A stretch of 64,000 nt of DNA, taken from the sequence record MH051913. One strand, given 5' to 3'. Of the stretch, positions 5,235 through 63,547 are shown one piece after another (within the stretch, counting starts at the first letter, position 1; each line of letters starts with the position of its first letter). The stretch is from Enterobacteria phage vB_EcoM_IME281. Made by a program: the position numbers and the translations under genes. Below the pieces are notes generated by a model. It was not told the DNA's origin, did not search any database, and saw nothing but the letters and a program-made list of their open reading frames with translations.

Positions 5235-6050
5235 TTAAGAAATTCGTGATGCTGCGATTGCAGACAGGTCCGCGAAGGACAGGGTAGGCTTAGCGCCTTT
5301 TTCTTCAACTGCTTCTGAAATGTAATTCAGTGCCGCAGCATCGTCTACATTTTTATTTATAGCGGCTTCGGTGATTGGGTTTCCAACGTCAGACTGACCT
5401 TTAACCATTTCAACAATAGCGCCAATTTTTTTACCGAATGCATCGGAATAATCCATGCCTTCTACCAGAGAACTGACTTTTTCTTTTTGAGATTCGGTCA
5501 GGTCTTTAGTTGCTTCCGTAACAGCAACTTCACGCTGTACGTAATTAATATACGCATCGCGCATACCAACTTCTTCGAACAGACGAGCGGTTTCATCTTT
5601 CTGCTCTTGGAGCTCTTCTTCCATTTCAGCAACAACATCTACTGCTTCTTCTGGAACAACCACATTGTGTTCAACAAACAGTTCTTTCATACCCATCAAC
5701 ATGGATTCGAACAGTTCGGCTTTAATACCTTTATCAACAGCCAGCTGGTTTTCAGCCATCCATTCTTTAGCAACGTGGTCAAGGAAACGACCGGCAGCTT
5801 CTTGGATTTTCTTATCGGCTTTTTCTTCAGCTTCTTCTTTATTTTTCTCGACTTCTTCTTCCGCTTTTTCAGCGATTTTAGCGATGTGAGATTCAGCCAG
5901 TTTCACGGCGTGTTGCTTGACGGTAGCTTCGAATACAGTGCCGAAAGTTTCTTTTGCTTCCGGAGAAATATTAACTGATTCGAAAATACTGTCAAGAGCA
6001 ACGGAAGCATCAATATTCTGTGCTTCGGCGATCAGTTGTTCTTTAAGCAT
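5235..6050 (-). CDS. 22: gp22 prohead core scaffold protein
   Basis: 271 aa, acidic/coiled-coil, position between gp21 and gp23. Confidence 0.85.
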   Translation of the reverse strand: MLKEQLIAEAQNIDASVALDSIFESVNISPEAKETFGTVFEATVKQHAVKLAESHIAKIAEKAEEEVEKNKEEAEEKADKKIQEAAGRFLDHVAKEWMAENQLAVDKGIKAELFESMLMGMKELFVEHNVVVPEEAVDVVAEMEEELQEQKDETARLFEEVGMRDAYINYVQREVAVTEATKDLTESQKEKVSSLVEGMDYSDAFGKKIGAIVEMVKGQSDVGNPITEAAINKNVDDAAALNYISEAVEEKGAKPTLSFADLSAIAASRIS

Positions 6051-38509: not shown

Positions 38510-38583
38510 GGCCCTGTAGCTGGACGGTCAAGCGAGCGACTCATAATCGCTGGATGGTGGTTCGATTCCACCCAGGGCCACCA
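38510..38583 (+). tRNA. tRNA with CAT anticodon (Met or Ile2-type), CCA encoded
   Basis: Hand-folded cloverleaf: acceptor GGCCCTG/CAGGGCC, anticodon stem AGCGA/TCGCT, loop CTCATAA, T-arm GGTGG-TTCGATT-CCACC. Confidence 0.7.
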
Positions 38584-38587
38584 ATTT

Positions 38588-38662
38588 GGATGTGTAGCTC
38601 AGCGGTAGAGCAGTTGACTGTTAATCAATTGGTCCATGGTTCGAATCCATGCATGTCCGCCA
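38588..38662 (+). tRNA. tRNA-Asn (GTT anticodon), CCA encoded
   Basis: D-stem GCTC/GAGC, anticodon loop CTGTTAA, T-arm CATGG-TTCGAAT-CCATG, acceptor with two G-U pairs. Confidence 0.7.
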
Positions 38663-38666
38663 AATA

Positions 38667-38742
38667 CGAGGCATAGCTCAGAAGGAAGAGCAACGGTCTT
38701 CTAAACCGTAGGTCGTAGGTTCGATCCCTACTGTCTCGACCA
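38667..38742 (+). tRNA. tRNA-Arg (TCT anticodon), CCA encoded
   Basis: D-stem GCTC/GAGC, anticodon stem ACGGT/ACCGT, loop CTTCTAA, T-arm GTAGG-TTCGATC-CCTAC. Confidence 0.75.
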
Positions 38743-53666: not shown

Positions 53667-54239
53667 ATGGCTCAACTTTATTTTCACTATGCTGCAATGA
53701 ATTCTGGGAAAACTGCTTCATTGCTAACAGCCGCTCATAACTACAAAGAACGCGGTATGGGCGTACTCCTTTTAAAGCCTGCGATAGACAATAGAGAATC
53801 AAGCCATAGCATTTCATCTCGTATAGGGATTAGCCAGGAGGCTAATGCAGTGACTCCGGATATGGACCTATACGAGTTCTATCGTTGGGCTGAATCTCAA
53901 AAAGATATCCACTGTGTATTTGTGGATGAAGCACAGTTCTTAGAACCGGCACAGATAAAACAACTGGCGAAGATAGTAGACAATTATAATGTTCCAGTTA
54001 TGTGCTATGGGCTAAGAACTGATTTTCAGGGTAAACTGTTTCCTGGCTCTGCTGAATTACTCGCTACAGCAGATAAACTCGTTGAGTACAAAGGTGTGTG
54101 CCACTGTGGCCGTAAAGCTACTATGACTGCTAGGGTCCAAGATGGTATCGCAATTAAGGACGGCGCCCAAGTTTCTATAGGTGGCAACGATTCTTACGTG
54201 TCATTGTGCAGGAAGCACTGGATAGAAATAACGAGTTGA
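53667..54239 (+). CDS. tk: Thymidine kinase
   Basis: 190 aa; P-loop AAMNSGKTASLL; VDEAQF; C-terminal CHCGRKA…SLCRKHW zinc site; matches recalled T4 Tk. Confidence 0.92.
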   Translation: MAQLYFHYAAMNSGKTASLLTAAHNYKERGMGVLLLKPAIDNRESSHSISSRIGISQEANAVTPDMDLYEFYRWAESQKDIHCVFVDEAQFLEPAQIKQLAKIVDNYNVPVMCYGLRTDFQGKLFPGSAELLATADKLVEYKGVCHCGRKATMTARVQDGIAIKDGAQVSIGGNDSYVSLCRKHWIEITS

Positions 54240-54246
54240 GGGTACT

Positions 54247-54525
54247 ATGGACCTAAATTCAAAGATTTTAATTCTAGCGTTCGCTGTGGCTATTTCTTAC
54301 ATTGTTCTTTCGCCTATCATGGATGATGCGGCTTACAAAAGAGAGATAGAAGTTGTAGCAGCGACGTATAATGCTAATAATAAAGAATGCCCTAATAAAA
54401 ATGGAATGGATTTAATTAAAGCACATTATATGCTTTCCATTACCTCGCCTATACAGAGGAATTGGGTTGAATATAATTTTAACGACGTGTTCTATTCTTA
54501 TTGTCGTAAGCTTAAAAAGCTATAA
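54247..54525 (+). CDS. Small protein with N-terminal transmembrane segment
   Basis: 92 aa; ILILAFAVAISYIVLSPI. Confidence 0.45.
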   Translation: MDLNSKILILAFAVAISYIVLSPIMDDAAYKREIEVVAATYNANNKECPNKNGMDLIKAHYMLSITSPIQRNWVEYNFNDVFYSYCRKLKKL

Positions 54526-54618
54526 ATAGTAATACTAACCGTAGAGCTTTAGCTTTTGGTAATCGCTATCGGTTAAGGCCGAAAGGCAAATTCGTATAAA
54601 ATAACAAAGGACTTTTGT

Positions 54619-54912
54619 ATGGGTATTTTCCGTACAGTGGCTTGTATCCTTATGATTGGATGTTTAAGCCCAACATCTTCACTAGCAAACAAATCCGACC
54701 CTAAATTGATGGACGCCTTTGCTAGTAGTGCGATGCCAGTTTATGCGCAAATGAGTAAACCTAGTGTAAAGGCCTCCGAAGACTACTGGGCTTATGTAAC
54801 TGCTTCTTGGAAAATTTCAAATTGCAATACAATAGAGTCTTGCTCGATTGAAGGTCGGGCTATCGGAGAACGATACGCTAAACTAATGAAGGTAGATGAT
54901 GAAATTCAATGA
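54619..54912 (+). CDS. Secreted protein or lipoprotein
   Basis: 97 aa; N-terminal MGIFRTVACILMIGC|LSPTSS signal/lipobox-like. Confidence 0.45.
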   Translation: MGIFRTVACILMIGCLSPTSSLANKSDPKLMDAFASSAMPVYAQMSKPSVKASEDYWAYVTASWKISNCNTIESCSIEGRAIGERYAKLMKVDDEIQ

Positions 54913-55282
54913 TTTCGTACTTAGTCGAGGGACTGAAGTAGATTCTTATATTGGTTGGCTGTTGGTTTCTTTAGCCTATTTTAAGTCAGCCCATTTGGAA
55001 ACCAAAAGCTATGCAAGACACAAAGCATATGACTTCTATTATACAGAAGTTCAAGGACCACTAGACCAGTTCAGTGAACAGTATTTAGGATTTAGTGGCA
55101 AAGAATATAAAGCATCACTACCATCTGCTTCAGAACTGCCTAAAGACCCCATAGATTTTCTTGATGAACTTATTAAAGCGTCTGATAAAATCTACAAAAA
55201 TCTTCCTAAGGCCATCCAATCGACTTTGGACGACATCACTGGTGTCTTTTACCAGACTAAGTATTTGTTAACGTTAGAATAA
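54896..55282 (+). CDS. Hypothetical protein
   Basis: 128 aa. Confidence 0.45.
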   Translation: MMKFNDFVLSRGTEVDSYIGWLLVSLAYFKSAHLETKSYARHKAYDFYYTEVQGPLDQFSEQYLGFSGKEYKASLPSASELPKDPIDFLDELIKASDKIYKNLPKAIQSTLDDITGVFYQTKYLLTLE

Positions 55283-55286
55283 TCAA

Positions 55287-55314
55287 AGGTCTCACTTCGG
55301 TGGGACCTTTTTTC
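55287..55314 (+). terminator. UUCG hairpin terminator (aggtctcac-ttcg-gtgggacct + TTTTTT)
   Basis: 9-bp stem, T-run. Confidence 0.7.
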
Positions 55315-55322
55315 GTTTAGGT

Positions 55323-55362
55323 GTTTACTTCCTCTAGGAACGTGATACTATAGACCTATCAA
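55323..55362 (+). promoter_or_regulatory. PeSL-like early promoter cassette
   Basis: gtttacttcctctaggaacgtgatactatagacctatcaac. Confidence 0.6.
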
Positions 55363-55379
55363 CTAATGAGGAGAACAGT

Positions 55380-55616
55380 ATGAAACTTACAAGTACTACG
55401 GTTTCATTGGAATATGAAATCAATAACCGCCTCCTTGAGATTAAGATATTCGACGACCGAAGTATCTTTGCTGACTACCGAGGGTACAGAATTCGCCTAG
55501 AAAAGGACGAGCTCAAGGAACCACGGCTCCTTAAAGACACATTAAAGGGATGTGGGTGTAAGCTGAAGACCACTCAAGCCCAAGAATTAATTTCTACTAT
55601 CAACAAATACTGGTGA
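55380..55616 (+). CDS. Small hypothetical protein
   Basis: 78 aa; GAGGAG SD. Confidence 0.45.
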   Translation: MKLTSTTVSLEYEINNRLLEIKIFDDRSIFADYRGYRIRLEKDELKEPRLLKDTLKGCGCKLKTTQAQELISTINKYW

Positions 55617-55620
55617 TATT

Positions 55621-55803
55621 ATGTTAACTACTGAACAGATTGAGAAAATTATTAAACTCGCCCAGCATATTGAAAACGCATCCAATGACCTAGCTGTTGA
55701 ATATTGCGAAGGTTATTCATATTCTGGAATAGAGCAGTGTAAACGAGATTTGGCTAATTCTAAAGCGGCCTTGGTTGAGTATCTTAATGAGTTGAAAGCA
55801 TAA
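55621..55803 (+). CDS. Small hypothetical protein
   Basis: 60 aa. Confidence 0.4.
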   Translation: MLTTEQIEKIIKLAQHIENASNDLAVEYCEGYSYSGIEQCKRDLANSKAALVEYLNELKA

Positions 55804-55828
55804 TGGCTGATGGCACAGGAGCCTGAAG

Positions 55829-55924
55829 ATGATTTACTATCTTGAACCTTGGGCTTGGTCAACAATGATTATAGGCCCTATTTTAATCGGTTTATTCTTT
55901 TCATGGTTAGTGAGGAAATTGTAA
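55829..55924 (+). CDS. Candidate 31-aa hydrophobic micro-protein (MIYYLEPWAWSTMIIGPILIGLFFSWLVRKL)
   Basis: AGGAG SD 7 nt upstream; stop overlaps next ATG (TAAATG). Confidence 0.35.
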   Translation: MIYYLEPWAWSTMIIGPILIGLFFSWLVRKL

Positions 55925-56122
55925 ATGTTATACGATCCAAATGGTTGTTCTGAAGATGGTGTGATTGCCCTTTTAGCAGATGTTGAAGAATCTGACGATG
56001 ACGTCTTTGTTAAAGATTGGGAAGAAAAAGGTGGAATCACGCTCCAACAAGAAAATGATATGATTTGTCTGAATGCAGACCAAGTCGAAGAGCTTTATAG
56101 TATTTTAAAACATAACCGTTGA
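55925..56122 (+). CDS. Small acidic hypothetical protein
   Basis: 65 aa. Confidence 0.45.
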   Translation: MLYDPNGCSEDGVIALLADVEESDDDVFVKDWEEKGGITLQQENDMICLNADQVEELYSILKHNR

Positions 56123-56132
56123 GGAATAGAAA

Positions 56133-56693
56133 ATGATTATTGAAACAACTGAATTGTTTGGCGAACTGTCCGCTGAAGTAGTTAATAACGCAATTGAGCT
56201 TTCACAAGAAGACGATAAAATCGTACTGACTATCGCTGATATTAAACCGCTTTATGATTTAATGGTTTTAGATAGACACGATTATCTTAACGGTCGGGCT
56301 AGTGCTCCTATCGATATCAATGATGATATGTTTGCCTATATCTATAAAAATGAAACCGGGTTTAATCTGGAAAATGGTATTGAATGTCTGAGCATCAGCG
56401 ATTCTGATAAATTCTTTGATTGTATTTTCAAACTGTTCCAGGAAGAATGCAAGCCGGAAGTTGAATGGAAAGTCCCTGGCCAAGATGCCGTGATTCGTTC
56501 TAGTGAAACCTTTGAAGGTGATGAAGAAGAACTGAATTATGATACTGAATTAACCGTGTATCAACATCAGGGCCGTGATTTGTTATCCTTGACCCAAAGA
56601 CACGATGGTGAAAGTGAAGTGGTATTTACTAAAGACGAACTAAAAGTTTTAGTCTCTTATCTGAACTCTGTTATCCCAACTATGAACTCTTAA
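56133..56693 (+). CDS. Highly acidic hypothetical protein
   Basis: 186 aa; high Asp/Glu content. Confidence 0.5.
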   Translation: MIIETTELFGELSAEVVNNAIELSQEDDKIVLTIADIKPLYDLMVLDRHDYLNGRASAPIDINDDMFAYIYKNETGFNLENGIECLSISDSDKFFDCIFKLFQEECKPEVEWKVPGQDAVIRSSETFEGDEEELNYDTELTVYQHQGRDLLSLTQRHDGESEVVFTKDELKVLVSYLNSVIPTMNS

Positions 56694-56703
56694 GGAAAAT
56701 ATT

Positions 56704-57162
56704 ATGATTATGATTATCAATGCAAACTCTTGGCACGCTAAACTTCATGACCGTTTTTATGACAGTCATTCTCGACCGCACTCTTTATGTGCTTACTTCT
56801 GGAAAATGGTTTGGGCTTGTTTTGCTTGTGCTGTTGTTGCAGGTAGTACGCTTTTTGGATTAACTGTTGCAGGTGTTGGTGTATTAGAGCATTTCTTTGT
56901 ATTAAGTACCCCTGTTCTGTTGAGTCTAGGGTTTGTTTTAGGATTGGTTGCAATAGCTCTTATTATTGCGCTATCCATTGGTTTGGCATTCGGTGCGATG
57001 AATTTACACGCATGGTATGATGCCCGTAGAGAAGAAAAGGAATGGCAACGTATTCAAGCTGAGCGTGAAGGCCGAGAAACTAAAGAAAACATCGTTATTC
57101 AATACATTAAAGCTCGTAAATCTAAGGTCTGTCCGGTAATCCACTTCGAGGACAAAGAATGA
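56704..57162 (+). CDS. Membrane protein (about three TM helices)
   Basis: 152 aa; ATGA-coupled to the downstream NTase gene. Confidence 0.5.
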   Translation: MIMIINANSWHAKLHDRFYDSHSRPHSLCAYFWKMVWACFACAVVAGSTLFGLTVAGVGVLEHFFVLSTPVLLSLGFVLGLVAIALIIALSIGLAFGAMNLHAWYDARREEKEWQRIQAEREGRETKENIVIQYIKARKSKVCPVIHFEDKE

Positions 57163-58169
57163 GAACAGTTATGAAAGGCTACTTCGGTAGTCACCTTTAT
57201 GGAACAAGTACTCCAGAATCTGATGTTGATTTTAAAGAAATCTTTGTTCCACATCCGCGTGATATTCTGTTAGGTACGGCTATGAACCATACCAACCTGA
57301 ATACGAATAACACTGCTTCCAAAAACACTAAAGATGATGTTGACCACGAGCTTTACAGCCTGAAATATTTCTTTAAACTGGCGGCAGATGGCGAAACCGT
57401 TGCTCTGGATATGCTCCACACTCCACCTGAAATGGTGGTTAAATCTGATTTACCTGGTGTATGGAAATTTATCCAAGACAATCGTTCTCGGTTCTATACG
57501 ACTAACATGAAAGCCTATTTAGGGTACGTCCGTAAGCAAGCTTCTAAATATGGTGTTAAGGGTTCTCGACTAGCTGCACTGCGTGGTGTACTGGCTATTG
57601 TTAACCAGATTCCTGAACAGTGGGTCGATTATCAAGAAGGAATCCCTGATAGACTTCGTCGTACTAAGGTAGAAGATATCAAACACAGACTCCCTGAAAA
57701 TGAGTTCTGTGAATGGGTATTCCATAACCATGAGAAAACAGGTCCGCAAACGTTCTATACTGTTCTAGGACGTAAGTACCAAACTACTTTGTCTTTAATC
57801 GAGCTCAAGCAATCTCTGAATAAGCTCGATGCTGAATATGGTGAACGTGCCCGTAAAGCTGAAGCTAACGAAGGTATTGACTGGAAAGCTCTGAGCCATG
57901 CTTATCGGGCTGGGTATCAATTGTTGGAAATCTACCAAACAGGCGACCTGGTATTCCCATTGCGCGAAGCCTCTATCATTAAGCTGATTAAGGCCGGTGA
58001 ACTTCCATTTAAAGAGGTCCAAGAACTTCTTGAAGACACTGTTGATTTAGTCGAAGTACTGGCTATCCAGGCTCATAAGAACGGTATGCCTGCTAAGGTA
58101 GATATGAAGTTCTGGGACAAGTTTGTTGAAGAGGTATACCTTGACAACCACAACTCTTATTATCGATAA
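57159..58169 (+). CDS. Polymerase-beta-superfamily nucleotidyltransferase-fold protein
   Basis: 336 aa; N-terminal GSHLYGTSTPESDVDF. Confidence 0.55.
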   Translation: MRTVMKGYFGSHLYGTSTPESDVDFKEIFVPHPRDILLGTAMNHTNLNTNNTASKNTKDDVDHELYSLKYFFKLAADGETVALDMLHTPPEMVVKSDLPGVWKFIQDNRSRFYTTNMKAYLGYVRKQASKYGVKGSRLAALRGVLAIVNQIPEQWVDYQEGIPDRLRRTKVEDIKHRLPENEFCEWVFHNHEKTGPQTFYTVLGRKYQTTLSLIELKQSLNKLDAEYGERARKAEANEGIDWKALSHAYRAGYQLLEIYQTGDLVFPLREASIIKLIKAGELPFKEVQELLEDTVDLVEVLAIQAHKNGMPAKVDMKFWDKFVEEVYLDNHNSYYR

Positions 58170-58176
58170 CGAAGAA

Positions 58177-58365
58177 ATGAAGGTCTTTTTATCATATGGA
58201 AGACCCCATAAAACCCGACGTTGGTATCTTGAAGCTGTCTGTAAAGAAACCGGACGTCGAGTCAATATCAAGTACGTGTGCAAACCTACGCCTAAACAGA
58301 CAAGACAATTTGTTAACTGGGCTATAAATGATATACGCTTCCATAATTTTTGGAGCGCAATTTAG
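58177..58365 (+). CDS. Small basic hypothetical protein (start ambiguous; alternative 58123)
   Basis: ORF between the NTase gene and a terminator. Confidence 0.4.
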   Translation: MKVFLSYGRPHKTRRWYLEAVCKETGRRVNIKYVCKPTPKQTRQFVNWAINDIRFHNFWSAI

Positions 58366-58386
58366 GAACCTTCGGGTTCCTTTTTT
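58365..58386 (+). terminator. UUCG hairpin terminator (ggaacc-ttcg-ggttcc + TTTTTT)
   Basis: 6-bp stem, T-run. Confidence 0.7.
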
Positions 58387-58405
58387 GGGTTTAGTGCAAA
58401 AAAGA

Positions 58406-58448
58406 GTTTACACCCTCGTAGAGCATGTTATTATGGACCTATCAAATC
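58406..58448 (+). promoter_or_regulatory. PeSL-like early promoter cassette (TATTATGG -10 variant)
   Basis: gtttacaccctcgtagagcatgttattatggacctatcaaatc. Confidence 0.55.
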
Positions 58449-58471
58449 TACTGAGTGAAATGGAGAATATA

Positions 58472-59452
58472 ATGTTAACTATCAAAATCAACAAAGGTAT
58501 CTATCGCGGTAATGTAATCTCCGGTACGTTCATGAGTTCAGGTAAAACCTGGTTCCCTAATAAAATTCATGAATCCGAAGCTCACCTCGGTGATGGTAAG
58601 GTATTTGTACAGATTGATGGTGTTGAACGTGGTGTATGGGTGTTCAAATGTGACGTTGAAATGGAAGGTGCTGAAGCTCCTGCAATGGTTACTGAATCCG
58701 CTGAAGAAATGAAACATCGCATCAACAAACGTTTTAAAGTAATGAACATGATGACTAACGGAATCATCGATGGTAAAATTCGTTCCCTTATCATCTCTGG
58801 TGCCGCAGGTATTGGTAAAACTTATTCTTTGGATAAAGCATTACAGAATGCCCACGAAAATGAAACTATCGAATATAAATCAATCAACGGAAAGATTAGT
58901 GGAATCGGTCTTTACGAGCAGCTTTGGAATAACCGCGGCCCTAATAGTGTTCTTCTTATCGATGATGTTGATGTATTCTCTGATATGGATATCCTGAACC
59001 TGTTAAAAGCAGCATTGGATACCGGTGAAAAACGTAAGGTGTGCTGGAGCACTTCAAGTTCTTATCTCGATGATAAAAATATCGATAAAGAATTCGAATA
59101 CGAAGGCACCATCGTGTTCATCACCAACGTTGATATTGACCGTGAATTAGAGCGTGGAACTAAACTTGCTCCGCACCTCCAGGCTTTAGTATCTCGTTCA
59201 GTTTACTTAGACCTCGGAGTTCACTCTAACGAAGAGATTATGGTTCGTGTTGAAGACGTTATCCTGTCCACTGATATGATGCAAAATCGAGGTCTGACCG
59301 ATGCTGAGACTTATCAAGCACTGGCATGGATGAAGGCTAATGTATCTCGTCTTCGTAACGTATCATTACGTACAGCTCTTTATCTGGCGGACTTCATTGC
59401 CACCGATAAAAATGACTGGAACGAAATTGCTGAAGTTACACTTCTGAAATAA
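58472..59452 (+). CDS. P-loop ATPase with about 80-aa N-terminal domain
   Basis: Start at ATG after GGAG SD; Walker A GAAGIGKTY, Walker B VLLIDDVD. Confidence 0.55.
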   Translation: MLTIKINKGIYRGNVISGTFMSSGKTWFPNKIHESEAHLGDGKVFVQIDGVERGVWVFKCDVEMEGAEAPAMVTESAEEMKHRINKRFKVMNMMTNGIIDGKIRSLIISGAAGIGKTYSLDKALQNAHENETIEYKSINGKISGIGLYEQLWNNRGPNSVLLIDDVDVFSDMDILNLLKAALDTGEKRKVCWSTSSSYLDDKNIDKEFEYEGTIVFITNVDIDRELERGTKLAPHLQALVSRSVYLDLGVHSNEEIMVRVEDVILSTDMMQNRGLTDAETYQALAWMKANVSRLRNVSLRTALYLADFIATDKNDWNEIAEVTLLK

Positions 59453-59461
59453 AGGTGAATT

Positions 59462-59803
59462 ATGTTTGAACAATTTATTTACAATCTTTATAAAGCAGGT
59501 TTGGCCCATCGTGATGCCATGAAACAGTCCGTCGAGGACTATGATAAAGAAGTTATCGACGGATATACTAATAGAGTTTATAAAACAGATTGTGAAGAAG
59601 GAGATTACAAGAGACTGCTCTTGGCTGCGAAGACCCAGGCCTTAATAAATCTAGACCGTAAGCAGGTAAAGTTGGCAGGCGACTTCCGAGGTGAACTCTG
59701 CGCCATCAGGAATGAATATCGCATTCGTATTGAACATCAACGGAAACCTAATACCCAATCAGCGTGGTTTAGTGGACATGCCGGTGAAAAAAGTTTCTAT
59801 TAG
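59462..59803 (+). CDS. Hypothetical protein
   Basis: 113 aa. Confidence 0.45.
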   Translation: MFEQFIYNLYKAGLAHRDAMKQSVEDYDKEVIDGYTNRVYKTDCEEGDYKRLLLAAKTQALINLDRKQVKLAGDFRGELCAIRNEYRIRIEHQRKPNTQSAWFSGHAGEKSFY

Positions 59804-59805
59804 TT

Positions 59806-59853
59806 GTTTACATCTCCAGTAGAAATGATACTATAGACCTATCAACTACTGGA
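59806..59853 (+). promoter_or_regulatory. PeSL-like early promoter cassette (stem ctccagtag/ctactggag)
   Basis: gtttacatctccagtagaaatgatactatagacctatcaactactggag. Confidence 0.65.
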
Positions 59854-59860
59854 GGTTATC

Positions 59861-60385
59861 ATGAACGCTAAAGATATTTTTTCACTGATTAATTTTAACA
59901 ATGGTAATTTCAAATCTGAAAAACAAAGCAAGTTCTTTAACGACGTTGCTTGTGGTAATGAGATTACCGTATCTGGAGGAGAGATTTACAAAAGCCGTTG
60001 GAACTGGATTGTTGTCATTGATTCAGTTGGTATTGTAGAGCTCTATAAAAACACTAACAAAAAACGTACTCTTCACTGGAGTCGTGAAACCAATCAAGCT
60101 TATCAAGCTGAACGTAACAAACGTTTAATGCCTACCGAATCTGACCTGGCAAACGTTAAATCTGATATCGCTTATTTCGATAATCTGATTGCCGAGGAAC
60201 AAGCGGTTATTGATAAGTTTGATGAAATCAAAGCTTGTAAAGAGATTCCTGAATTCATGCGGGAATCAGTAAATGAACAGTACGCCCTCACTTCAGGTCG
60301 TATCGAGCAGTACAAATCACAACGAGCTGAACGCCAAGCTCTGCTTCAGAAATTTGAAGAGCGTTTAAAGACGGTTCTCGCATAA
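59861..60385 (+). CDS. Hypothetical protein
   Basis: 174 aa. Confidence 0.45.
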   Translation: MNAKDIFSLINFNNGNFKSEKQSKFFNDVACGNEITVSGGEIYKSRWNWIVVIDSVGIVELYKNTNKKRTLHWSRETNQAYQAERNKRLMPTESDLANVKSDIAYFDNLIAEEQAVIDKFDEIKACKEIPEFMRESVNEQYALTSGRIEQYKSQRAERQALLQKFEERLKTVLA

Positions 60386-60448
60386 ACGCTTTATACCAAG
60401 GATGGTATAATGGTTCTAGGTTCTTAATTACTTACTGAGGAAATTATT

Positions 60449-61294
60449 ATGTCACAGGCAATTAATCAAATTCGTTCTGAAGTTAAAAAAGTTGTTAAAT
60501 TTGGTCGTATTCCTAGTTCTAAAGAAGTGGTTGAAAAGGTCCTATATATGATGTGGGACAAGTTCAATGTTTGTACTGTTAAAGATGACTTCACTAAAAT
60601 CTTTGACAAGACTAAAGGTTCGTTTACGTTAGAAGACCGAGTCATGAAAACCCTTCGTAAAACGGGTATGTTGTCTCGTGCTAATGCCAAAATTATTCTT
60701 AAAAATTATAACAAAGGCTACGACCTCTATGGTCGTTTAATCCCGGCGATGTCATTTGATGAAGTTGTTCAAGACCTTCATGCCAACCAACGACGTCTAC
60801 TGGCGCTTGGCGCTCGACTTGCAAAAGGTCAAGATAAGCAAATGCCATTTAAGACTAATGGTTCGGGTGATTGGATTATCTTTAATATTGTTAACCACCC
60901 TGGAAATGAAAATGAGTACACCATTTCAACTTTTAGTGGTTGCCAATATGACAACTGGAAGTTCCATCTGCGCTTGGCCCTATCTGAATTAGAACAACAC
61001 AGTGTTCTTAGTTTTGGTGATGCTGAAACTGGAGTAGGTCAACGTATTAAACTTTATAAAATTAAAGACCTGGCTGAAGAGCATTCAGAACAAGCTCCTA
61101 AAATGGAACCTGTACCAGTGCGAAGCAATGAGAAACATCAAGCCCAGATTGAGTATTTTAGCAATTTGCTTACTTGCTTGAATGTTACAATCCAACAACA
61201 AGATGATGAGATTTTCCGACTCTCTGGTCTGAATGCCAAAGCTAAGGCTGAACGCCAGAAATATATCGATATCCTAAATCTTCTTAAGGATTAA
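60449..61294 (+). CDS. Hypothetical protein
   Basis: 281 aa; GAGGA SD. Confidence 0.5.
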   Translation: MSQAINQIRSEVKKVVKFGRIPSSKEVVEKVLYMMWDKFNVCTVKDDFTKIFDKTKGSFTLEDRVMKTLRKTGMLSRANAKIILKNYNKGYDLYGRLIPAMSFDEVVQDLHANQRRLLALGARLAKGQDKQMPFKTNGSGDWIIFNIVNHPGNENEYTISTFSGCQYDNWKFHLRLALSELEQHSVLSFGDAETGVGQRIKLYKIKDLAEEHSEQAPKMEPVPVRSNEKHQAQIEYFSNLLTCLNVTIQQQDDEIFRLSGLNAKAKAERQKYIDILNLLKD

Positions 61295-61296
61295 TT

Positions 61297-61377
61297 ATGG
61301 AATGGCTCGCTGTTCTTGGATATGTAATCGTAGCCACGGGTGTTCTGAGGCTAATTTTCTCAAACATTGTAGGTTAA
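61297..61377 (+). CDS. Candidate 26-aa hydrophobic micro-protein (MEWLAVLGYVIVATGVLRLIFSNIVG)
   Basis: AAGGA SD 6 nt upstream; tightly packed between neighbouring genes. Confidence 0.3.
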   Translation: MEWLAVLGYVIVATGVLRLIFSNIVG

Positions 61378-61378
61378 T

Positions 61379-61594
61379 ATGGAAATCTTAGGTTTTATTC
61401 TCCTTTACTTTGTGCTAGGATTTATGACGACCTTTATCATTCATAAATCAGGTGATTGGAATCCAATCGAAATTGAATCAAGCTATGATGCAGTATTCAT
61501 TACACTAGTATGGCCCCTACTTTGGGTTGTTTTGGTCATTATGATGGTGTTTTGGCCTATTGCTAAATTCTATGAAAAATTATTTGGACTTTAA
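61379..61594 (+). CDS. Small membrane protein (two TM helices)
   Basis: 71 aa. Confidence 0.45.
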   Translation: MEILGFILLYFVLGFMTTFIIHKSGDWNPIEIESSYDAVFITLVWPLLWVVLVIMMVFWPIAKFYEKLFGL

Positions 61595-61595
61595 T

Positions 61596-62477
61596 ATGAA
61601 CATTAAAACACGTAAAGAATACTCTATATACGACCATGACACTACTCGTCGTATCGCTATTGACCGGTTAGCAGACTTTGGTTATATTTGTAATGGTAAT
61701 TATACTTATGGCGTAGGACGTAAAGGAACTTATATCGGTTCTTTGAACGATTATTGCCGTTGCCCAGCCCACCTGTTTGGTGCAACATTGCGGGCTAATA
61801 TCAAAGACCTCTTGGCTACCGCAGGACGTATTTCTACGGTTCCTGTTAATATCAAAAGTATTAATTTTACGGCTCGTAACCTAGTCATTAATATTCTGCC
61901 TGATGGTATTCAAGTTCGTTTCCGTCCCACCTCAAAAGGCAATAAAGCCCTTCGTGAAGCATTCGAAACCTTATTCAGGGAAGCAATGACTCGTATTAAG
62001 GCAGTAGAATCATATAAAGTTACAACCGATGAATATGCCGATTGTTCTGGGCGAGCAGATGCAGTTTATTTTAATGTTAAACTAGCTCGCGAATATCTTT
62101 TATCTTATGCCCCTTATCAACCCCAACAAAAGGACCCACAAATGGAACGTCGTATATCTATCGCTACCTCTACAGTATCATGTGACAGTGTAGGCCAGTA
62201 TGCAGCCTATGACAAATTCAAAACCACTGCTGTGCCTAGTCCATTCAATTCCGAACCATATCATTGGAAAATTAAACCTGATAATTCTTTGGTTGTTACT
62301 AACCCTACGATGAAACCTATTGAGACCTATTATGCAGATAGCATTCAGGAATCAATCCACCGTTTAAATGGTCAGATTGAAGATGAGAAAAAGAGCATTC
62401 AAGACGTATTGACCCGCATCAAGAATATGGAAAACCAGCGTGACAAGCTCAGCGCGGCACTATTAGCTCTAAAATAG
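61596..62477 (+). CDS. Hypothetical protein with C-terminal coiled coil
   Basis: Start at MNIKTRKEY; 293 aa. Confidence 0.5.
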   Translation: MNIKTRKEYSIYDHDTTRRIAIDRLADFGYICNGNYTYGVGRKGTYIGSLNDYCRCPAHLFGATLRANIKDLLATAGRISTVPVNIKSINFTARNLVINILPDGIQVRFRPTSKGNKALREAFETLFREAMTRIKAVESYKVTTDEYADCSGRADAVYFNVKLAREYLLSYAPYQPQQKDPQMERRISIATSTVSCDSVGQYAAYDKFKTTAVPSPFNSEPYHWKIKPDNSLVVTNPTMKPIETYYADSIQESIHRLNGQIEDEKKSIQDVLTRIKNMENQRDKLSAALLALK

Positions 62478-62478
62478 T

Positions 62479-62520
62479 GTTTACATCCAAGGACGGATGG
62501 AGTATAATCCTTTTATCAAC
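62479..62520 (+). promoter_or_regulatory. Early promoter (GTTTAC -35, TATAAT -10 in aagga…tcctt stem)
   Basis: gtttacatccaaggacggatggagtataatcctt. Confidence 0.55.
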
Positions 62521-62536
62521 TACTGAGGAGAATATC

Positions 62537-63547
62537 ATGACCCGTACTGAATACATCAATGCCTTTACTAAGTATATCACTGACAATACCCCTCCATTAA
62601 CACCGTATGAGGTGATAGTTTCTAATATCAATAAATGGGTAGACCAAATTGATAAAGCATTATCCAATTGTTTCAAAGATGAAATCGAAAAGATTGCAGG
62701 CCGTTTGTTTATTTCTGATATCGTAGATACATTTAAAGGTTCTCGACTGCTTTCACGGTTGGTCAATAAGGATATCCTTTCAGAGTTTGGCAAAGAGAAA
62801 CACCCAGGTTCCAGCCACGTTGTTAGCTACCAATGGTTTGGTGATGTTTTAAAAAGCTATATCAAAATGAAAGGTACCGACCCTAAGGGCTTATTTCCTT
62901 TACGTTGGGCCGGTGAATTTAAGGCTAACTCCGCATTAATTCTAAAAGCAGCAACCAAAACCTTTGTAAAGGGTGATTGTCGTACTATCCACCCTATGGC
63001 TGATGGCATGATTAAAACAAACAACTATAAAGGGAAGGTGCTTATTTCTATTATTTGGTCGCCTAGTTGGAAACCTAAAGAAGTTGAAGTTTCGAAATAC
63101 CAAGATATTTCCTACAATACCCTGAATATTGTAGAACAAGCTTTAGCTTTGATGGATACAGTAGAGAAATATGAGATTCAAGAAATCAACCACCACTTAG
63201 GCTGGAAAGGATATGAAGTTTTAGTAACAGTTCGCGAAATCAAATGCCCTGTTCCAAAAACCGACGCTGAAATTTACCAAGAAAAATGTGAGGAAATTGT
63301 GAACACTGATAAAGAGCCTGCAACCTTAGAAGACTTGATTGATGAGCTGAATGGCCCAAGGCTACTGGCCTGTGCACCAATTACTAAATCCAAGCCGCCA
63401 GAAGTAGTTGCTCTGGAAAAAGCATATAAAGATGCCCTTGCTATCAACAAAAAACTGACCGGACAATATACTGCTGCCAAGAAACTTTGGGAAGAGTCTA
63501 CCAATCGTCTGGATAAACTGGAACAAGCCCTGGAGCTGTTGAAATGA
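62537..63547 (+). CDS. Hypothetical protein
   Basis: 336 aa; GAGGAG SD. Confidence 0.5.
   Translation: MTRTEYINAFTKYITDNTPPLTPYEVIVSNINKWVDQIDKALSNCFKDEIEKIAGRLFISDIVDTFKGSRLLSRLVNKDILSEFGKEKHPGSSHVVSYQWFGDVLKSYIKMKGTDPKGLFPLRWAGEFKANSALILKAATKTFVKGDCRTIHPMADGMIKTNNYKGKVLISIIWSPSWKPKEVEVSKYQDISYNTLNIVEQALALMDTVEKYEIQEINHHLGWKGYEVLVTVREIKCPVPKTDAEIYQEKCEEIVNTDKEPATLEDLIDELNGPRLLACAPITKSKPPEVVALEKAYKDALAINKKLTGQYTAAKKLWEESTNRLDKLEQALELLK

What the first reader, a model, noticed from the sequence alone, without database searches (positions are those of the whole stretch)
55829..61594. Unannotated hydrophobic micro-proteins wedged between genes
Two short ORFs with good SDs and start/stop overlaps with their neighbours encode 31-aa and 26-aa single-helix hydrophobic peptides (55829-55924 and 61297-61377). 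The second is followed by a 71-aa two-helix membrane protein. Such micro-proteins fall below standard ORF cutoffs and may act as membrane regulators, holin/antiholin-like factors or exclusion proteins.
Basis: seen in the sequence. Interest (0 to 1): 0.35.

Follow-up and report, generated by a model that had tools for sequence, protein, structure and literature searches.

The report
Conserved tiny phage membrane-peptide genes
Two very short genes (31 and 26 codons) squeezed between larger early genes of a T4-like coliphage are real genes kept by selection. They encode single-helix membrane peptides of unknown role, some related phage records already list them as 'hypothetical protein', and this is ordinary for this kind of phage.

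Summary
The window is a Dhakavirus (JS98/QL01-like T4-type coliphage). The finding lies in its early tk–rI–mobD–nrdC region. All three ORFs exist exactly as described, each with a Shine-Dalgarno site.

**m31 (31 aa):** intact in 102 phage records from three genera. It equals VR7ORF105c / PHROG 12165.

**p71 (71 aa):** equals VR7ORF094c / PHROG 7899 and occurs in 85 records. AlphaFold predicts a two-helix hairpin.

**m26 (26 aa):** occurs in only 25 records, always directly upstream of p71. It has no family, is frameshifted in VR25, and carries a private W18R change in this window.

**Coding evidence:** both micro-ORFs show frame-specific purifying selection. pN/pS is 0.22 for m31 and 0.11 for m26, against 0.13–0.28 for neighbouring genes. 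The synonymous excess gives p≈1e-5 to 3e-5 in frame and is non-significant in the other frames. There is no RNA-structure signal.

**Architecture:** each micro-ORF sits exactly between two genes. It uses the ribosome site that serves the downstream gene in phages lacking it, and it carries a replacement site in its own last codons.

**Function:** unknown. A holin or antiholin role is unlikely, and an accessory in-membrane modulator is the best guess.

**Verdict:** real but ordinary, and partly already catalogued.

The parts
55285..55310 (+). Terminator-like hairpin closing the rI / rI.-1 unit
   Evidence: 11-bp stem followed by a T-run.
55323..55351 (+). Early-promoter-like site (GTTTAC-17 nt-TACTAT) at the head of the unit that contains m31
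   Evidence: Sequence read. The likeness to T4 early promoters comes from my own knowledge, so this is an inference.
55621..55803 (+). mobD.3 homologue (DUF7438), the gene upstream of m31 in this window
55803..55826 (+). Seven-codon remnant (MADGTGA*) of a deleted TraR/DksA-type zinc-finger gene. The deletion keeps m31's ribosome site.
   Evidence: JS98 has CTGTTGG at both ends of its intact 258-nt gene, and the window retains only the fused ends.
55817..55821 (+). Shine-Dalgarno site AGGAG of m31. The same site serves DUF7189 directly in Kanagawavirus phages, which lack m31.
55829..55924 (+). m31: 31-aa single-helix membrane micro-protein gene (VR7ORF105c family, PHROG 12165)
55912..55916 (+). 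GAGGA inside m31's last codons (R29-K30), serving as the Shine-Dalgarno site for the downstream DUF7189 gene
55925..56122 (+). DUF7189 gene (RB69ORF107c-like, 65 aa, acidic). It starts immediately after m31's stop.
58364..58381 (+). Terminator-like hairpin ending the unit that contains m31
58407..58434 (+). Promoter-like site (TTTACA-16 nt-TATTAT, with TG) at the head of the unit that contains m26 and p71
60449..61294 (+). nrdC.6 homologue. Its last codons hold the TAAGGA Shine-Dalgarno site (61285-61290) used by m26. In phages lacking m26, that site serves p71.
61297..61377 (+). m26: 26-aa single-helix hydrophobic micro-protein gene. The window copy carries a private W18R change (AGG at 61348-61350).
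61369..61374 (+). GTAGGT in m26's last two codons, a Shine-Dalgarno-like site for p71
61379..61594 (+). p71: 71-aa membrane protein with two TM helices (VR7ORF094c family, PHROG 7899) and an invariant C-terminal WPIAKFYEKLFGL
61596..62477 (+). nrdC.5-like gene (DUF7235), downstream neighbour of p71. A possible alternative start at 61572 would overlap p71.

Best explanation
m31, m26 and p71 are genuine, translated accessory genes of a JS98/QL01-like T4-type coliphage. They encode small inner-membrane proteins: two single-helix peptides and one two-helix hairpin.

**Expression (inferred).** They lie inside two early-type polycistronic units. Promoter-like sites sit at 55323-55351 and 58407-58434, each just after a hairpin terminator.

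**Gene architecture (shown).** Each micro-ORF is wedged exactly between an upstream stop and a downstream start. It initiates from the ribosome-binding site that serves the downstream gene in phages lacking the micro-ORF. Its own last codons hold a substitute Shine-Dalgarno site, so the downstream gene (DUF7189 or p71) stays tightly coupled.

**Topology (inferred).** For m31, the invariant N-terminal MIYYLEPWAW should face the periplasm or interface and the C-terminal RK(L/M) the cytoplasm. m26 has no charged anchor in its consensus form.

**Function (inferred, low confidence).** They act as in-membrane binding partners or modulators rather than as enzymes or lysis proteins. m26 most likely works with p71, which it always precedes. 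m31 most likely works with an unknown host or phage inner-membrane protein. All three are dispensable and strain-variable, as expected for host-adaptation or exclusion-type accessory genes of a hyperplastic region.

**Sub-confidences.** Real coding genes: about 0.9. Membrane-inserted: about 0.8. Modulator or partner-binding role: about 0.35.
For: **Identity and context.**
- The window is 90-94% identical to Dhakavirus genomes across tk-rI-mobD-nrdC.

**ORF integrity in relatives.**
- m31 is full length in 102 records of Dhakavirus, Gaprivervirus and Mosigvirus.
- m26 occurs in 25 records plus one metagenome contig.
- p71 occurs in 85 records, down to 46% identity.

**Selection.**
- pN/pS is 0.22 for m31 and 0.11 for m26 in frame, against 0.38-3.6 in the other frames.
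- Distinct variant alleles are 17 synonymous to 13 non-synonymous for m31 (p=2.9e-5) and 15 to 6 for m26 (p=9.7e-6). The other frames are non-significant.
- Neighbouring accepted genes give pN/pS 0.13-0.28 with similar pS.
- Amino-acid replacements are mostly conservative hydrophobic swaps. The exceptions are S/L at position 11, P17S in Bp7 and W26R in dhabil for m31, and W18R in the window's m26.

**Family and structure.**
- PHROG 12165 and PHROG 7899 match over their full lengths.
- AlphaFold2 predicts p71 as helices 2-23 and 35-69, mean pLDDT 74.
- Hydrophobicity scans support the TM segments.

**Wedge architecture.**
-.

**No RNA alternative.**
- Fold z-scores are -0.25 and -0.65, and there is no Rfam family.

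**Dispensability.**
- m26 is absent from QL01, VR7, Bp7, IME08 and others and frameshifted in VR25.
- m31 is absent from RB69 and Kanagawavirus and deleted in vB_EcoM_005.
Against: - There is no direct evidence of translation or membrane location. No proteomic or ribosome-profiling data exist for these phages.
- No homologue has a known function, so the functional part is pure inference.
- The substitution counts rest on 11-13 haplotypes that are related by descent and recombination.
- m26 always sitting next to p71 could simply reflect where it was inserted.
- The window's own m26 has an Arg in mid-helix and may be impaired.
- Part of the conservation at the 3' ends is also explained by the embedded Shine-Dalgarno sites.
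Confidence: 0.6

Rival explanations
1. The micro-ORFs are cis-acting coupling or leader ORFs. What matters is that ribosomes translate through them to deliver or tune translation of the downstream gene (DUF7189 or p71). The peptides themselves have no role.
For: - Each micro-ORF holds the downstream gene's Shine-Dalgarno site in its last codons and ends 0-1 nt before, or overlapping, the downstream ATG.
- Each takes over the original ribosome site of the downstream gene.
Against: - Purifying selection is at the amino-acid level along the whole ORF, as strong as in neighbouring genes.
- The N-terminal decapeptide of m31 is invariant while its third codon positions vary.
- Replacements are mostly hydrophobic-for-hydrophobic.
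- Phages lacking the micro-ORFs couple the same downstream genes directly to the upstream gene, so no leader is needed.
Confidence: 0.12
2. They are superinfection-exclusion or defence-related membrane proteins. They would act like T4 Imm, altering the inner membrane or a host membrane complex to block incoming phage DNA or a membrane-acting host defence.
For: - Early-type transcription context.
- Location in a strain-variable accessory region beside other membrane-protein genes and rI.
- Patchy presence and absence across closely related phages.
- p71 has the size and two-TM layout of small exclusion proteins.
Against: - No sequence or profile similarity to any exclusion or defence-related family.
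- There is no experimental data.
- This is a special case of the 'modulator' reading rather than a distinct architecture.
Confidence: 0.15
3. They are lysis-timing factors: holin, antiholin or pinholin-like.
For: - Small TM proteins lying 1-6.5 kb downstream of rI.
- p71 has a class-II-holin-like length and two TM segments.
- A weak Pfam hit to Phage_holin_3_6, E=0.33.
Against: - The Pfam hit is far below the family cut-off (11.5 against 28.4 bits).
- The genes are in early-type units, not late ones.
- p71's C-terminus (AKFYEKLFGL) is not strongly basic.
- Sister phages with the same rI context lack m26, m31 or p71.
- From my own knowledge, T4-type lysis already uses T, RI and RIII.
Confidence: 0.05
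4. They are chance or decaying ORFs with no function. The hydrophobicity would be a by-product of the T-rich sequence, and m26 would be a remnant on its way out.
For: - Hydrophobic short ORFs are common in this AT-rich window.
- m26 is missing from most relatives, frameshifted in VR25 and W18R in the window.
- m31 is deleted in vB_EcoM_005.
Against: - Frame-specific synonymous excess and low pN/pS.
- Intact frame, start and stop in 102 records (m31) and 24 of 25 records (m26, with VR20 one residue shorter), spread over two to three genera.
- Synonymous divergence matches that of neighbouring genes.
Confidence: 0.05

Closest known systems
VR7ORF105c / PHROG 12165 (orphan 31-aa phage protein family)
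   Same: m31 matches the whole 31-position profile at E=2e-21. It is 81-100% identical to annotated copies in VR7, VR25, VR26, PhAPEC2, JS09, P8 and UPEC01, at the same position upstream of DUF7189.
   Different: Nothing differs: it is a member. The family has no known function. In a search of 1.84 billion representative proteins it collapses to a single cluster.
VR7ORF094c / PHROG 7899 (71-aa phage membrane protein family)
   Same: p71 matches over its full length at E=2e-31. It has the same position between nrdC.6 and nrdC.5 and the same invariant C-terminus.
   Different: None: it is a member. Function is unknown. Foldseek finds no informative structural neighbour.
T4 Imm and other small T-even inner-membrane accessory proteins (Imm, Sp, Ac, RI); described from my own knowledge
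   Same: Small size, one or two TM segments, early expression context, dispensable and strain-variable.
   Different: No sequence or profile similarity. The genomic position differs. m31 and m26 are far smaller than any characterised T4 membrane protein. The window has its own rI homologue elsewhere, at 54619-54912.
Bacterial small membrane-protein regulators and subunits (AcrZ, MgtS, MgrB, KdpF, CydX); described from my own knowledge
   Same: Single-TM peptides of 26-50 aa that work by binding a larger membrane protein. KdpF and CydX are often encoded directly beside their partner, as m26 is beside p71.
   Different: No homology. These ORFs are phage-encoded, and no partner has been shown.
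Modular gain and loss of ORFans in T4-type hyperplastic regions (PeSL cassettes; Arbiol et al. 2010, PMC2839356)
   Same: Presence/absence polymorphism of small ORFan genes between close relatives. Terminator-plus-early-promoter pairs are present in the region.
   Different: m31 and m26 are not flanked by PeSLs. They are inserted at the stop/start junction inside an operon and have no promoter of their own.

Membership tests
PHROG 12165 (VR7ORF105c-like) | Full-length profile match | tested here: met
   m31 residues 1-31 against profile positions 1-31 of 31, E=2.1e-21.
PHROG 12165 (VR7ORF105c-like) | Conserved position immediately upstream of the DUF7189 gene | tested here: met
   Same arrangement in all 19 loci examined.
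PHROG 7899 (VR7ORF094c-like) | Full-length profile match | tested here: met
   p71 residues 1-71 against profile positions 1-71 of 71, E=2e-31.
Holins (Pfam holin families; class II two-TM type) | Significant match to a holin family model | tested here: not met
   The best hit is Phage_holin_3_6, E=0.33, 11.5 bits against a cut-off of 28.4. m31 and m26 have no hits.
Holins (Pfam holin families; class II two-TM type) | Late-gene or lysis-cassette context (next to endolysin or spanin) | tested here: not met
   The neighbours are mobD and nrdC early-region genes behind early-promoter-like sites. No lysis enzyme is adjacent.
Holins (Pfam holin families; class II two-TM type) | Strongly charged, basic cytoplasmic C-terminus | tested here: not met
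   p71 ends in AKFYEKLFGL, net charge about +1.
T4 RI antiholin | Homology to RI | tested here: not met
   The rI homologue is a separate gene at 54619-54912. The micro-ORFs have no Pfam, PHROG or NCBIfam hit to it.
Imm-type superinfection exclusion proteins | Sequence or profile similarity to the family | tested here: not met
   No such Pfam or PHROG hit at E<=1.
Imm-type superinfection exclusion proteins | Blocks DNA entry of superinfecting phage | not testable with these tools
   Needs plating or exclusion assays.
Bacterial small membrane-protein regulators (AcrZ/MgtS/KdpF/CydX type) | Fewer than 50 aa with one TM helix | tested here: met
   Hydrophobic 19-residue windows in m31 (10-28) and m26 (3-21).
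Bacterial small membrane-protein regulators (AcrZ/MgtS/KdpF/CydX type) | Homology to a named family | tested here: not met
   No NCBIfam or Pfam hit at E<=10 or E<=1 respectively.
Bacterial small membrane-protein regulators (AcrZ/MgtS/KdpF/CydX type) | Physical binding to a larger membrane protein | not testable with these tools
   Needs two-hybrid or pull-down experiments.
Type I toxin peptides (TisB/Ibs/ShoB/Hok type) | Family match and a dedicated antisense RNA antitoxin | tested here: not met
   No NCBIfam or Pfam hit. There is no Rfam antitoxin RNA in 54000-63000. Minus-strand promoter-like sites are no more frequent than in shuffled sequence.

The most novel reading that the evidence does not exclude
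m26 and m31 are young micro-protein genes caught in the act of spreading. They would be short inserts that hijack the ribosome site of a resident gene, supply a replacement site, and add a new trans-membrane helix to a phage membrane module. In this reading m26 is a detachable third helix of p71 that retunes an interaction with a host inner-membrane machine, for example in exclusion or counter-defence. The presence/absence, frameshift and W18R variants among near-identical phages would then be a natural experiment on micro-protein birth and loss.
Probability: 0.12. Interest if true: 0.5.

Novelty: new member of a known kind. Interest (0 to 1): 0.25.

Why it matters
- **Annotation.** Genes of 26-31 codons in T4-type phages can be validated by comparative genomics alone. 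Annotation of them is inconsistent: m26 is missing from most records, and the UPEC01 record calls it in the wrong frame.
- **Biology.** If the peptides modulate host membrane proteins, they would add to the small set of phage micro-proteins with defined targets.
- **Limits.** At present they are orphan accessory genes of unknown function. Two of the three are already catalogued, so the finding mainly helps annotation and the choice of candidates for experiments.

Tried and rejected
1. **m26 as a tandem duplication of p71's first helix.** Protein alignment against six p71 types gave shuffle p=0.24-0.46. DNA alignment gave a best p of 0.013 before correcting for six tests. Not supported.
2. **Insertion leaving a duplicated Shine-Dalgarno/ATG junction.** Junction similarity lies in the 4.5% tail for m26 and the 38% tail for m31 of all gene-start pairs. 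Not significant.
3. **m26-p71 fusion by frameshift or read-through.** The frame relation differs in VR20, and no fused homologue of about 98 aa exists. Rejected.
4. **Conserved RNA element instead of a gene.** Fold z-scores are -0.25 and -0.65, and there is no Rfam hit. Rejected.
5. **Remote homologues.**
   - The search for homologous proteins refuses queries under 40 aa.
   - HMMER of m31 against 1.84 billion representatives found only its own cluster.
   - Degenerate-pattern scans of viral and metagenome contigs found only the same phages, one further T4-like contig and one chance match.
   - p71 has only 12 clusters, all from the same phage group.
6. **Foldseek of the p71 model against BFVD.** No hit with E<=0.001.
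7. **T4 counterparts.** MobD.2 and MobD.2a occupy a similar position but are unrelated. NrdC.7 is unrelated to p71.
8. **The 2026 'Emp' peptide of Mosigvirus AV110.** It is a 109-aa protein next to motA, not these ORFs.
9. **T4 omics paper.** Its main text does not mention mobD or nrdC small ORFs.

Full report
**What the window is.**
- Bases 55000-62500 match about 850 T4-type phage records.
- The best matches are Dhakavirus genomes (QL01, LQ5, MN04, UP19, JS98) at 92-94.5% identity over the full length.
- Their annotation shows that the + strand here carries the early region in the order tk, rI, rI.-1, mobD.x, nrdC.11, nrdC.10, nrdC.8, nrdC.6, nrdC.5 and so on.
- The finding therefore lies in a classical strain-variable accessory ('hyperplastic') region of a T4-like coliphage.

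**The observation.**
- The three ORFs exist exactly as stated.
  - m31 is 55829-55924, 31 aa.
  - m26 is 61297-61377, 26 aa.
  - p71 is 61379-61594, 71 aa.
- m31 has AGGAG 7 nt upstream, m26 has TAAGGA 6 nt upstream, and p71 has GTAGGT 4 nt upstream.
- In this window the ORFs abut their neighbours rather than overlap them.
  - The m31 stop is followed directly by the ATG of the next gene.
  - The nrdC.6 stop is followed by 2 nt and then the m26 ATG.
  - The m26 stop is followed by 1 nt and then the p71 ATG.
- In many relatives m31 overlaps on both sides, with ATGA upstream and TAATG downstream.
- All three proteins are hydrophobic, with GRAVY values of 1.1, 1.6 and 1.2.
  - m31 and m26 each have one 19-residue hydrophobic window, and p71 has two.
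  - AlphaFold2 on an 11-sequence alignment predicts p71 as two long helices, 2-23 and 35-69, with mean pLDDT 74.
- Hydrophobicity alone proves nothing in this AT-rich genome. Between 1% and 11% of the 279 short ATG-ORFs in all six frames are as hydrophobic.

**Are they genes?**
- tblastn finds m31 as a complete 31-residue match in 102 records at 81-100% identity.
  - Among the loci I fetched, these span Dhakavirus, Gaprivervirus and Mosigvirus.
- m26 is found in only 25 records, from Dhakavirus and Gaprivervirus, plus one T4-like metagenome contig.
- p71 is found in 85 records, down to 46% identity.
- In 19 fetched loci m31 always keeps its ATG, length and stop.
- Nei-Gojobori pN/pS summed over unique haplotypes is shown below.

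| ORF | In frame | Frame +1 | Frame +2 |
|---|---|---|---|
| m31 | 0.22 | 0.38 | 0.75 |
| m26 | 0.11 | 1.0 | 3.6 |

- Counting distinct variant alleles against the consensus:
  - m31 has 17 synonymous and 13 non-synonymous, against 21.5% expected synonymous (p=2.9e-5).
  - m26 has 15 and 6, against 24.9% expected (p=9.7e-6).
  - Neither of the other two frames is significant for either ORF.
- Accepted neighbouring genes in the same genomes give pN/pS 0.13-0.28 and similar synonymous divergence.
  - So the micro-ORFs evolve like ordinary genes and not like constrained non-coding DNA.
- Amino-acid replacements are mostly hydrophobic-for-hydrophobic. The exceptions are S/L at position 11, P17S in Bp7 and W26R in dhabil for m31, and W18R in the window's m26.
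- The N-terminal MIYYLEPWAW of m31 is invariant although its third codon positions vary.
- RNA folding gives z-scores of -0.25 and -0.65, and Rfam gives nothing.
- I conclude that both micro-ORFs are protein-coding genes kept by purifying selection. This is shown at the level of sequence evolution. Translation itself is inferred.

**How known are they?**
- m31 was annotated as VR7ORF105c in phage VR7.
  - It is also annotated in VR25, VR26, PhAPEC2, JS09, ABTNLsp5, P8 and UPEC01.
  - It is PHROG 12165, a 31-position profile of unknown function.
- p71 is VR7ORF094c and PHROG 7899.
- Neither m31 nor m26 is annotated in JS98, dhabil, MN01 or UP19.
  - m31 is also unannotated in QL01, IME08, NC-G and IME540, which lack m26 altogether.
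- m26 is annotated in the right frame in RZ.
  - UPEC01 annotates the overlapping +2 frame instead, the frame with pN/pS 3.6. That call is probably wrong.
- m26 has no PHROG, Pfam or NCBIfam family.
- A HMMER search of m31 against 1.84 billion representative proteins found only its own cluster.
- p71 has 12 clusters, all from this phage group.

**Anatomy: precise wedges.**
- Kanagawavirus phages (PEi26, Q7622) have a TraR/DksA-type zinc-finger gene whose 3' end (...GGCAYAGGAGCATGAG) runs straight into the ATG of the DUF7189 gene.
  - In VR7-type genomes the same 3' end runs into the ATG of m31 instead.
  - DUF7189 follows m31 through CTGTAATG, preceded by GAGGA inside m31's codons for R29-K30.
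- DUF7189 occurs in 254 records but m31 in only 102. RB69 lacks m31.
- Likewise, in phages without m26 the end of nrdC.6 (CTTAAGGATTAAT) leads directly to p71's ATG.
  - In m26-bearing phages it leads to m26's ATG, and m26's own end (GTAGGTTAAT) leads to p71.
- So each micro-ORF uses the ribosome site that otherwise serves the downstream gene and supplies a substitute.
- Whether m26 was gained or lost at these junctions cannot be decided.
  - The idea that it arose by duplicating p71's 5' end, or by duplicating the junction, found no statistical support.

**Dispensability and variants.**
- m26 is absent from QL01, VR5, VR7, Bp7, IME08, NC-G, ABTNLsp5, IME540 and P8.
  - It is frameshifted to 13 aa in VR25 and one residue shorter in VR20.
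- The window's copy is the only one of 25 with Arg instead of Trp at position 18, in mid-helix. Its closest relative, UP19, has Trp.
- m31 together with the 5' part of DUF7189 is deleted in vB_EcoM_005.
- Mosigvirus PhAPEC2 and JS09 have m31 but no p71 or m26.
- MN01 combines m26 with a different p71 type.
- These are independent, exchangeable, non-essential modules.

**Expression context (inferred).**
- A hairpin terminator at 55285-55310 is followed by GTTTAC-17 nt-TACTAT at 55323-55351.
- A second hairpin at 58364-58381 is followed by TTTACA-16 nt-TATTAT at 58407-58434.
- These pairs resemble the terminator-plus-early-promoter cassettes described for T4-type hyperplastic regions (PMC2839356).
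- m31 lies inside the first unit. m26 and p71 lie inside the second.

**Mechanism.**
- Shown: the coding status, the hydrophobic helices and the coupling architecture.
- Inferred:
  - insertion into the inner membrane;
  - m31 oriented N-out, C-in, from the C-terminal RK and the acidic N-terminal segment;
  - action through in-membrane binding to a partner.
- The partner would be p71 for m26, and is unknown for m31. This is by analogy with small bacterial membrane proteins (my own knowledge).
- A pure 'coupling leader' role is unlikely, given the amino-acid-level selection and the fact that sister phages couple the same genes without the micro-ORFs.
- A holin or antiholin role is unlikely:
  - there is no family match;
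  - the context is early;
  - p71's C-terminus is weakly charged;
  - the phage has a separate rI gene;
  - relatives with the same lysis region lack these ORFs.
- An exclusion or counter-defence role is compatible with the data but untested.

**Verdict.**
- The claim of being unannotated is only partly true.
- The functional guesses remain open, with lysis the least likely.
- This is a typical, partly catalogued set of orphan accessory genes. It is useful for annotation and as candidates for micro-protein experiments, but it is not surprising.

Noticed in passing
window 55803-55826: Seven-codon remnant (MADGTGA*) of a TraR/DksA-type C4 zinc-finger gene that is intact (258 nt) in JS98, VR7, UP19 and others. 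JS98 has the 7-nt repeat CTGTTGG at both ends of the gene. The window, QL01, Bp7, IME08, NC-G and IME540 keep only the fused ends, which suggests a microhomology-mediated deletion that spared m31's ribosome site.
   Followed up: partly
window 61348-61350: The window's m26 has AGG (Arg18) where all 24 other copies have TGG (Trp), including UP19, which is 99.4% identical over the 351-nt m26-p71 segment. This puts a charge in mid-helix. It could be a loss-of-function change or a sequencing error.
   Followed up: partly
window 55285-55351 and 58364-58434: Two hairpin terminators, each followed within about 30 nt by an early-promoter-like site (GTTTAC-17-TACTAT and TTTACA-16-TATTAT). They resemble the PeSL cassettes of RB49/phi1.
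   Followed up: partly
window 38510-38742: Cluster of three tRNA genes on the + strand: Met-CAT, Asn-GTT and Arg-TCT.
   Followed up: no
L025 (UPEC01, MW233709.1) 5275-5364: This record annotates a 29-aa ORF in the +2 frame across m26 instead of m26 itself. That frame shows pN/pS 3.6, so the call is probably in the wrong frame.
   Followed up: yes
L038 (vB_EcoM_005, IMG/VR copy) around 1528-1700: A deletion joins m31 codon 12 to the interior of the DUF7189 gene (MIYYLEPWAWLTLF*). Both genes are therefore dispensable in that 155-kb phage.
   Followed up: partly
L015/L010 (VR25) m26 locus: m26 carries an internal deletion that shifts the frame, giving MEWLAVLGYVFCG* (13 aa), while the flanking nrdC.6 and p71 are intact.
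   Followed up: yes
window 61553-61594: The last 13 residues of p71 (WPIAKFYEKLFGL) are invariant across the family, even at about 55% overall identity. The last 23 nt also overlap a possible upstream ATG (61572) of the nrdC.5-like gene, which several records use as its start.
   Followed up: partly
window 58328-58471: The mechanical ORF for nrdC.10 (58328-59452, 374 aa) runs upstream across the terminator hairpin and the promoter-like site. Relatives annotate a 981-nt gene, so the real start is probably further downstream.
   Followed up: no
window 56704-57162: A 152-aa membrane protein (RB69ORF104c-like, PHROG 944 'membrane protein, host takeover') lies in the same early unit as m31. The 10-kb stretch therefore encodes at least four membrane proteins besides RI.
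   Followed up: no
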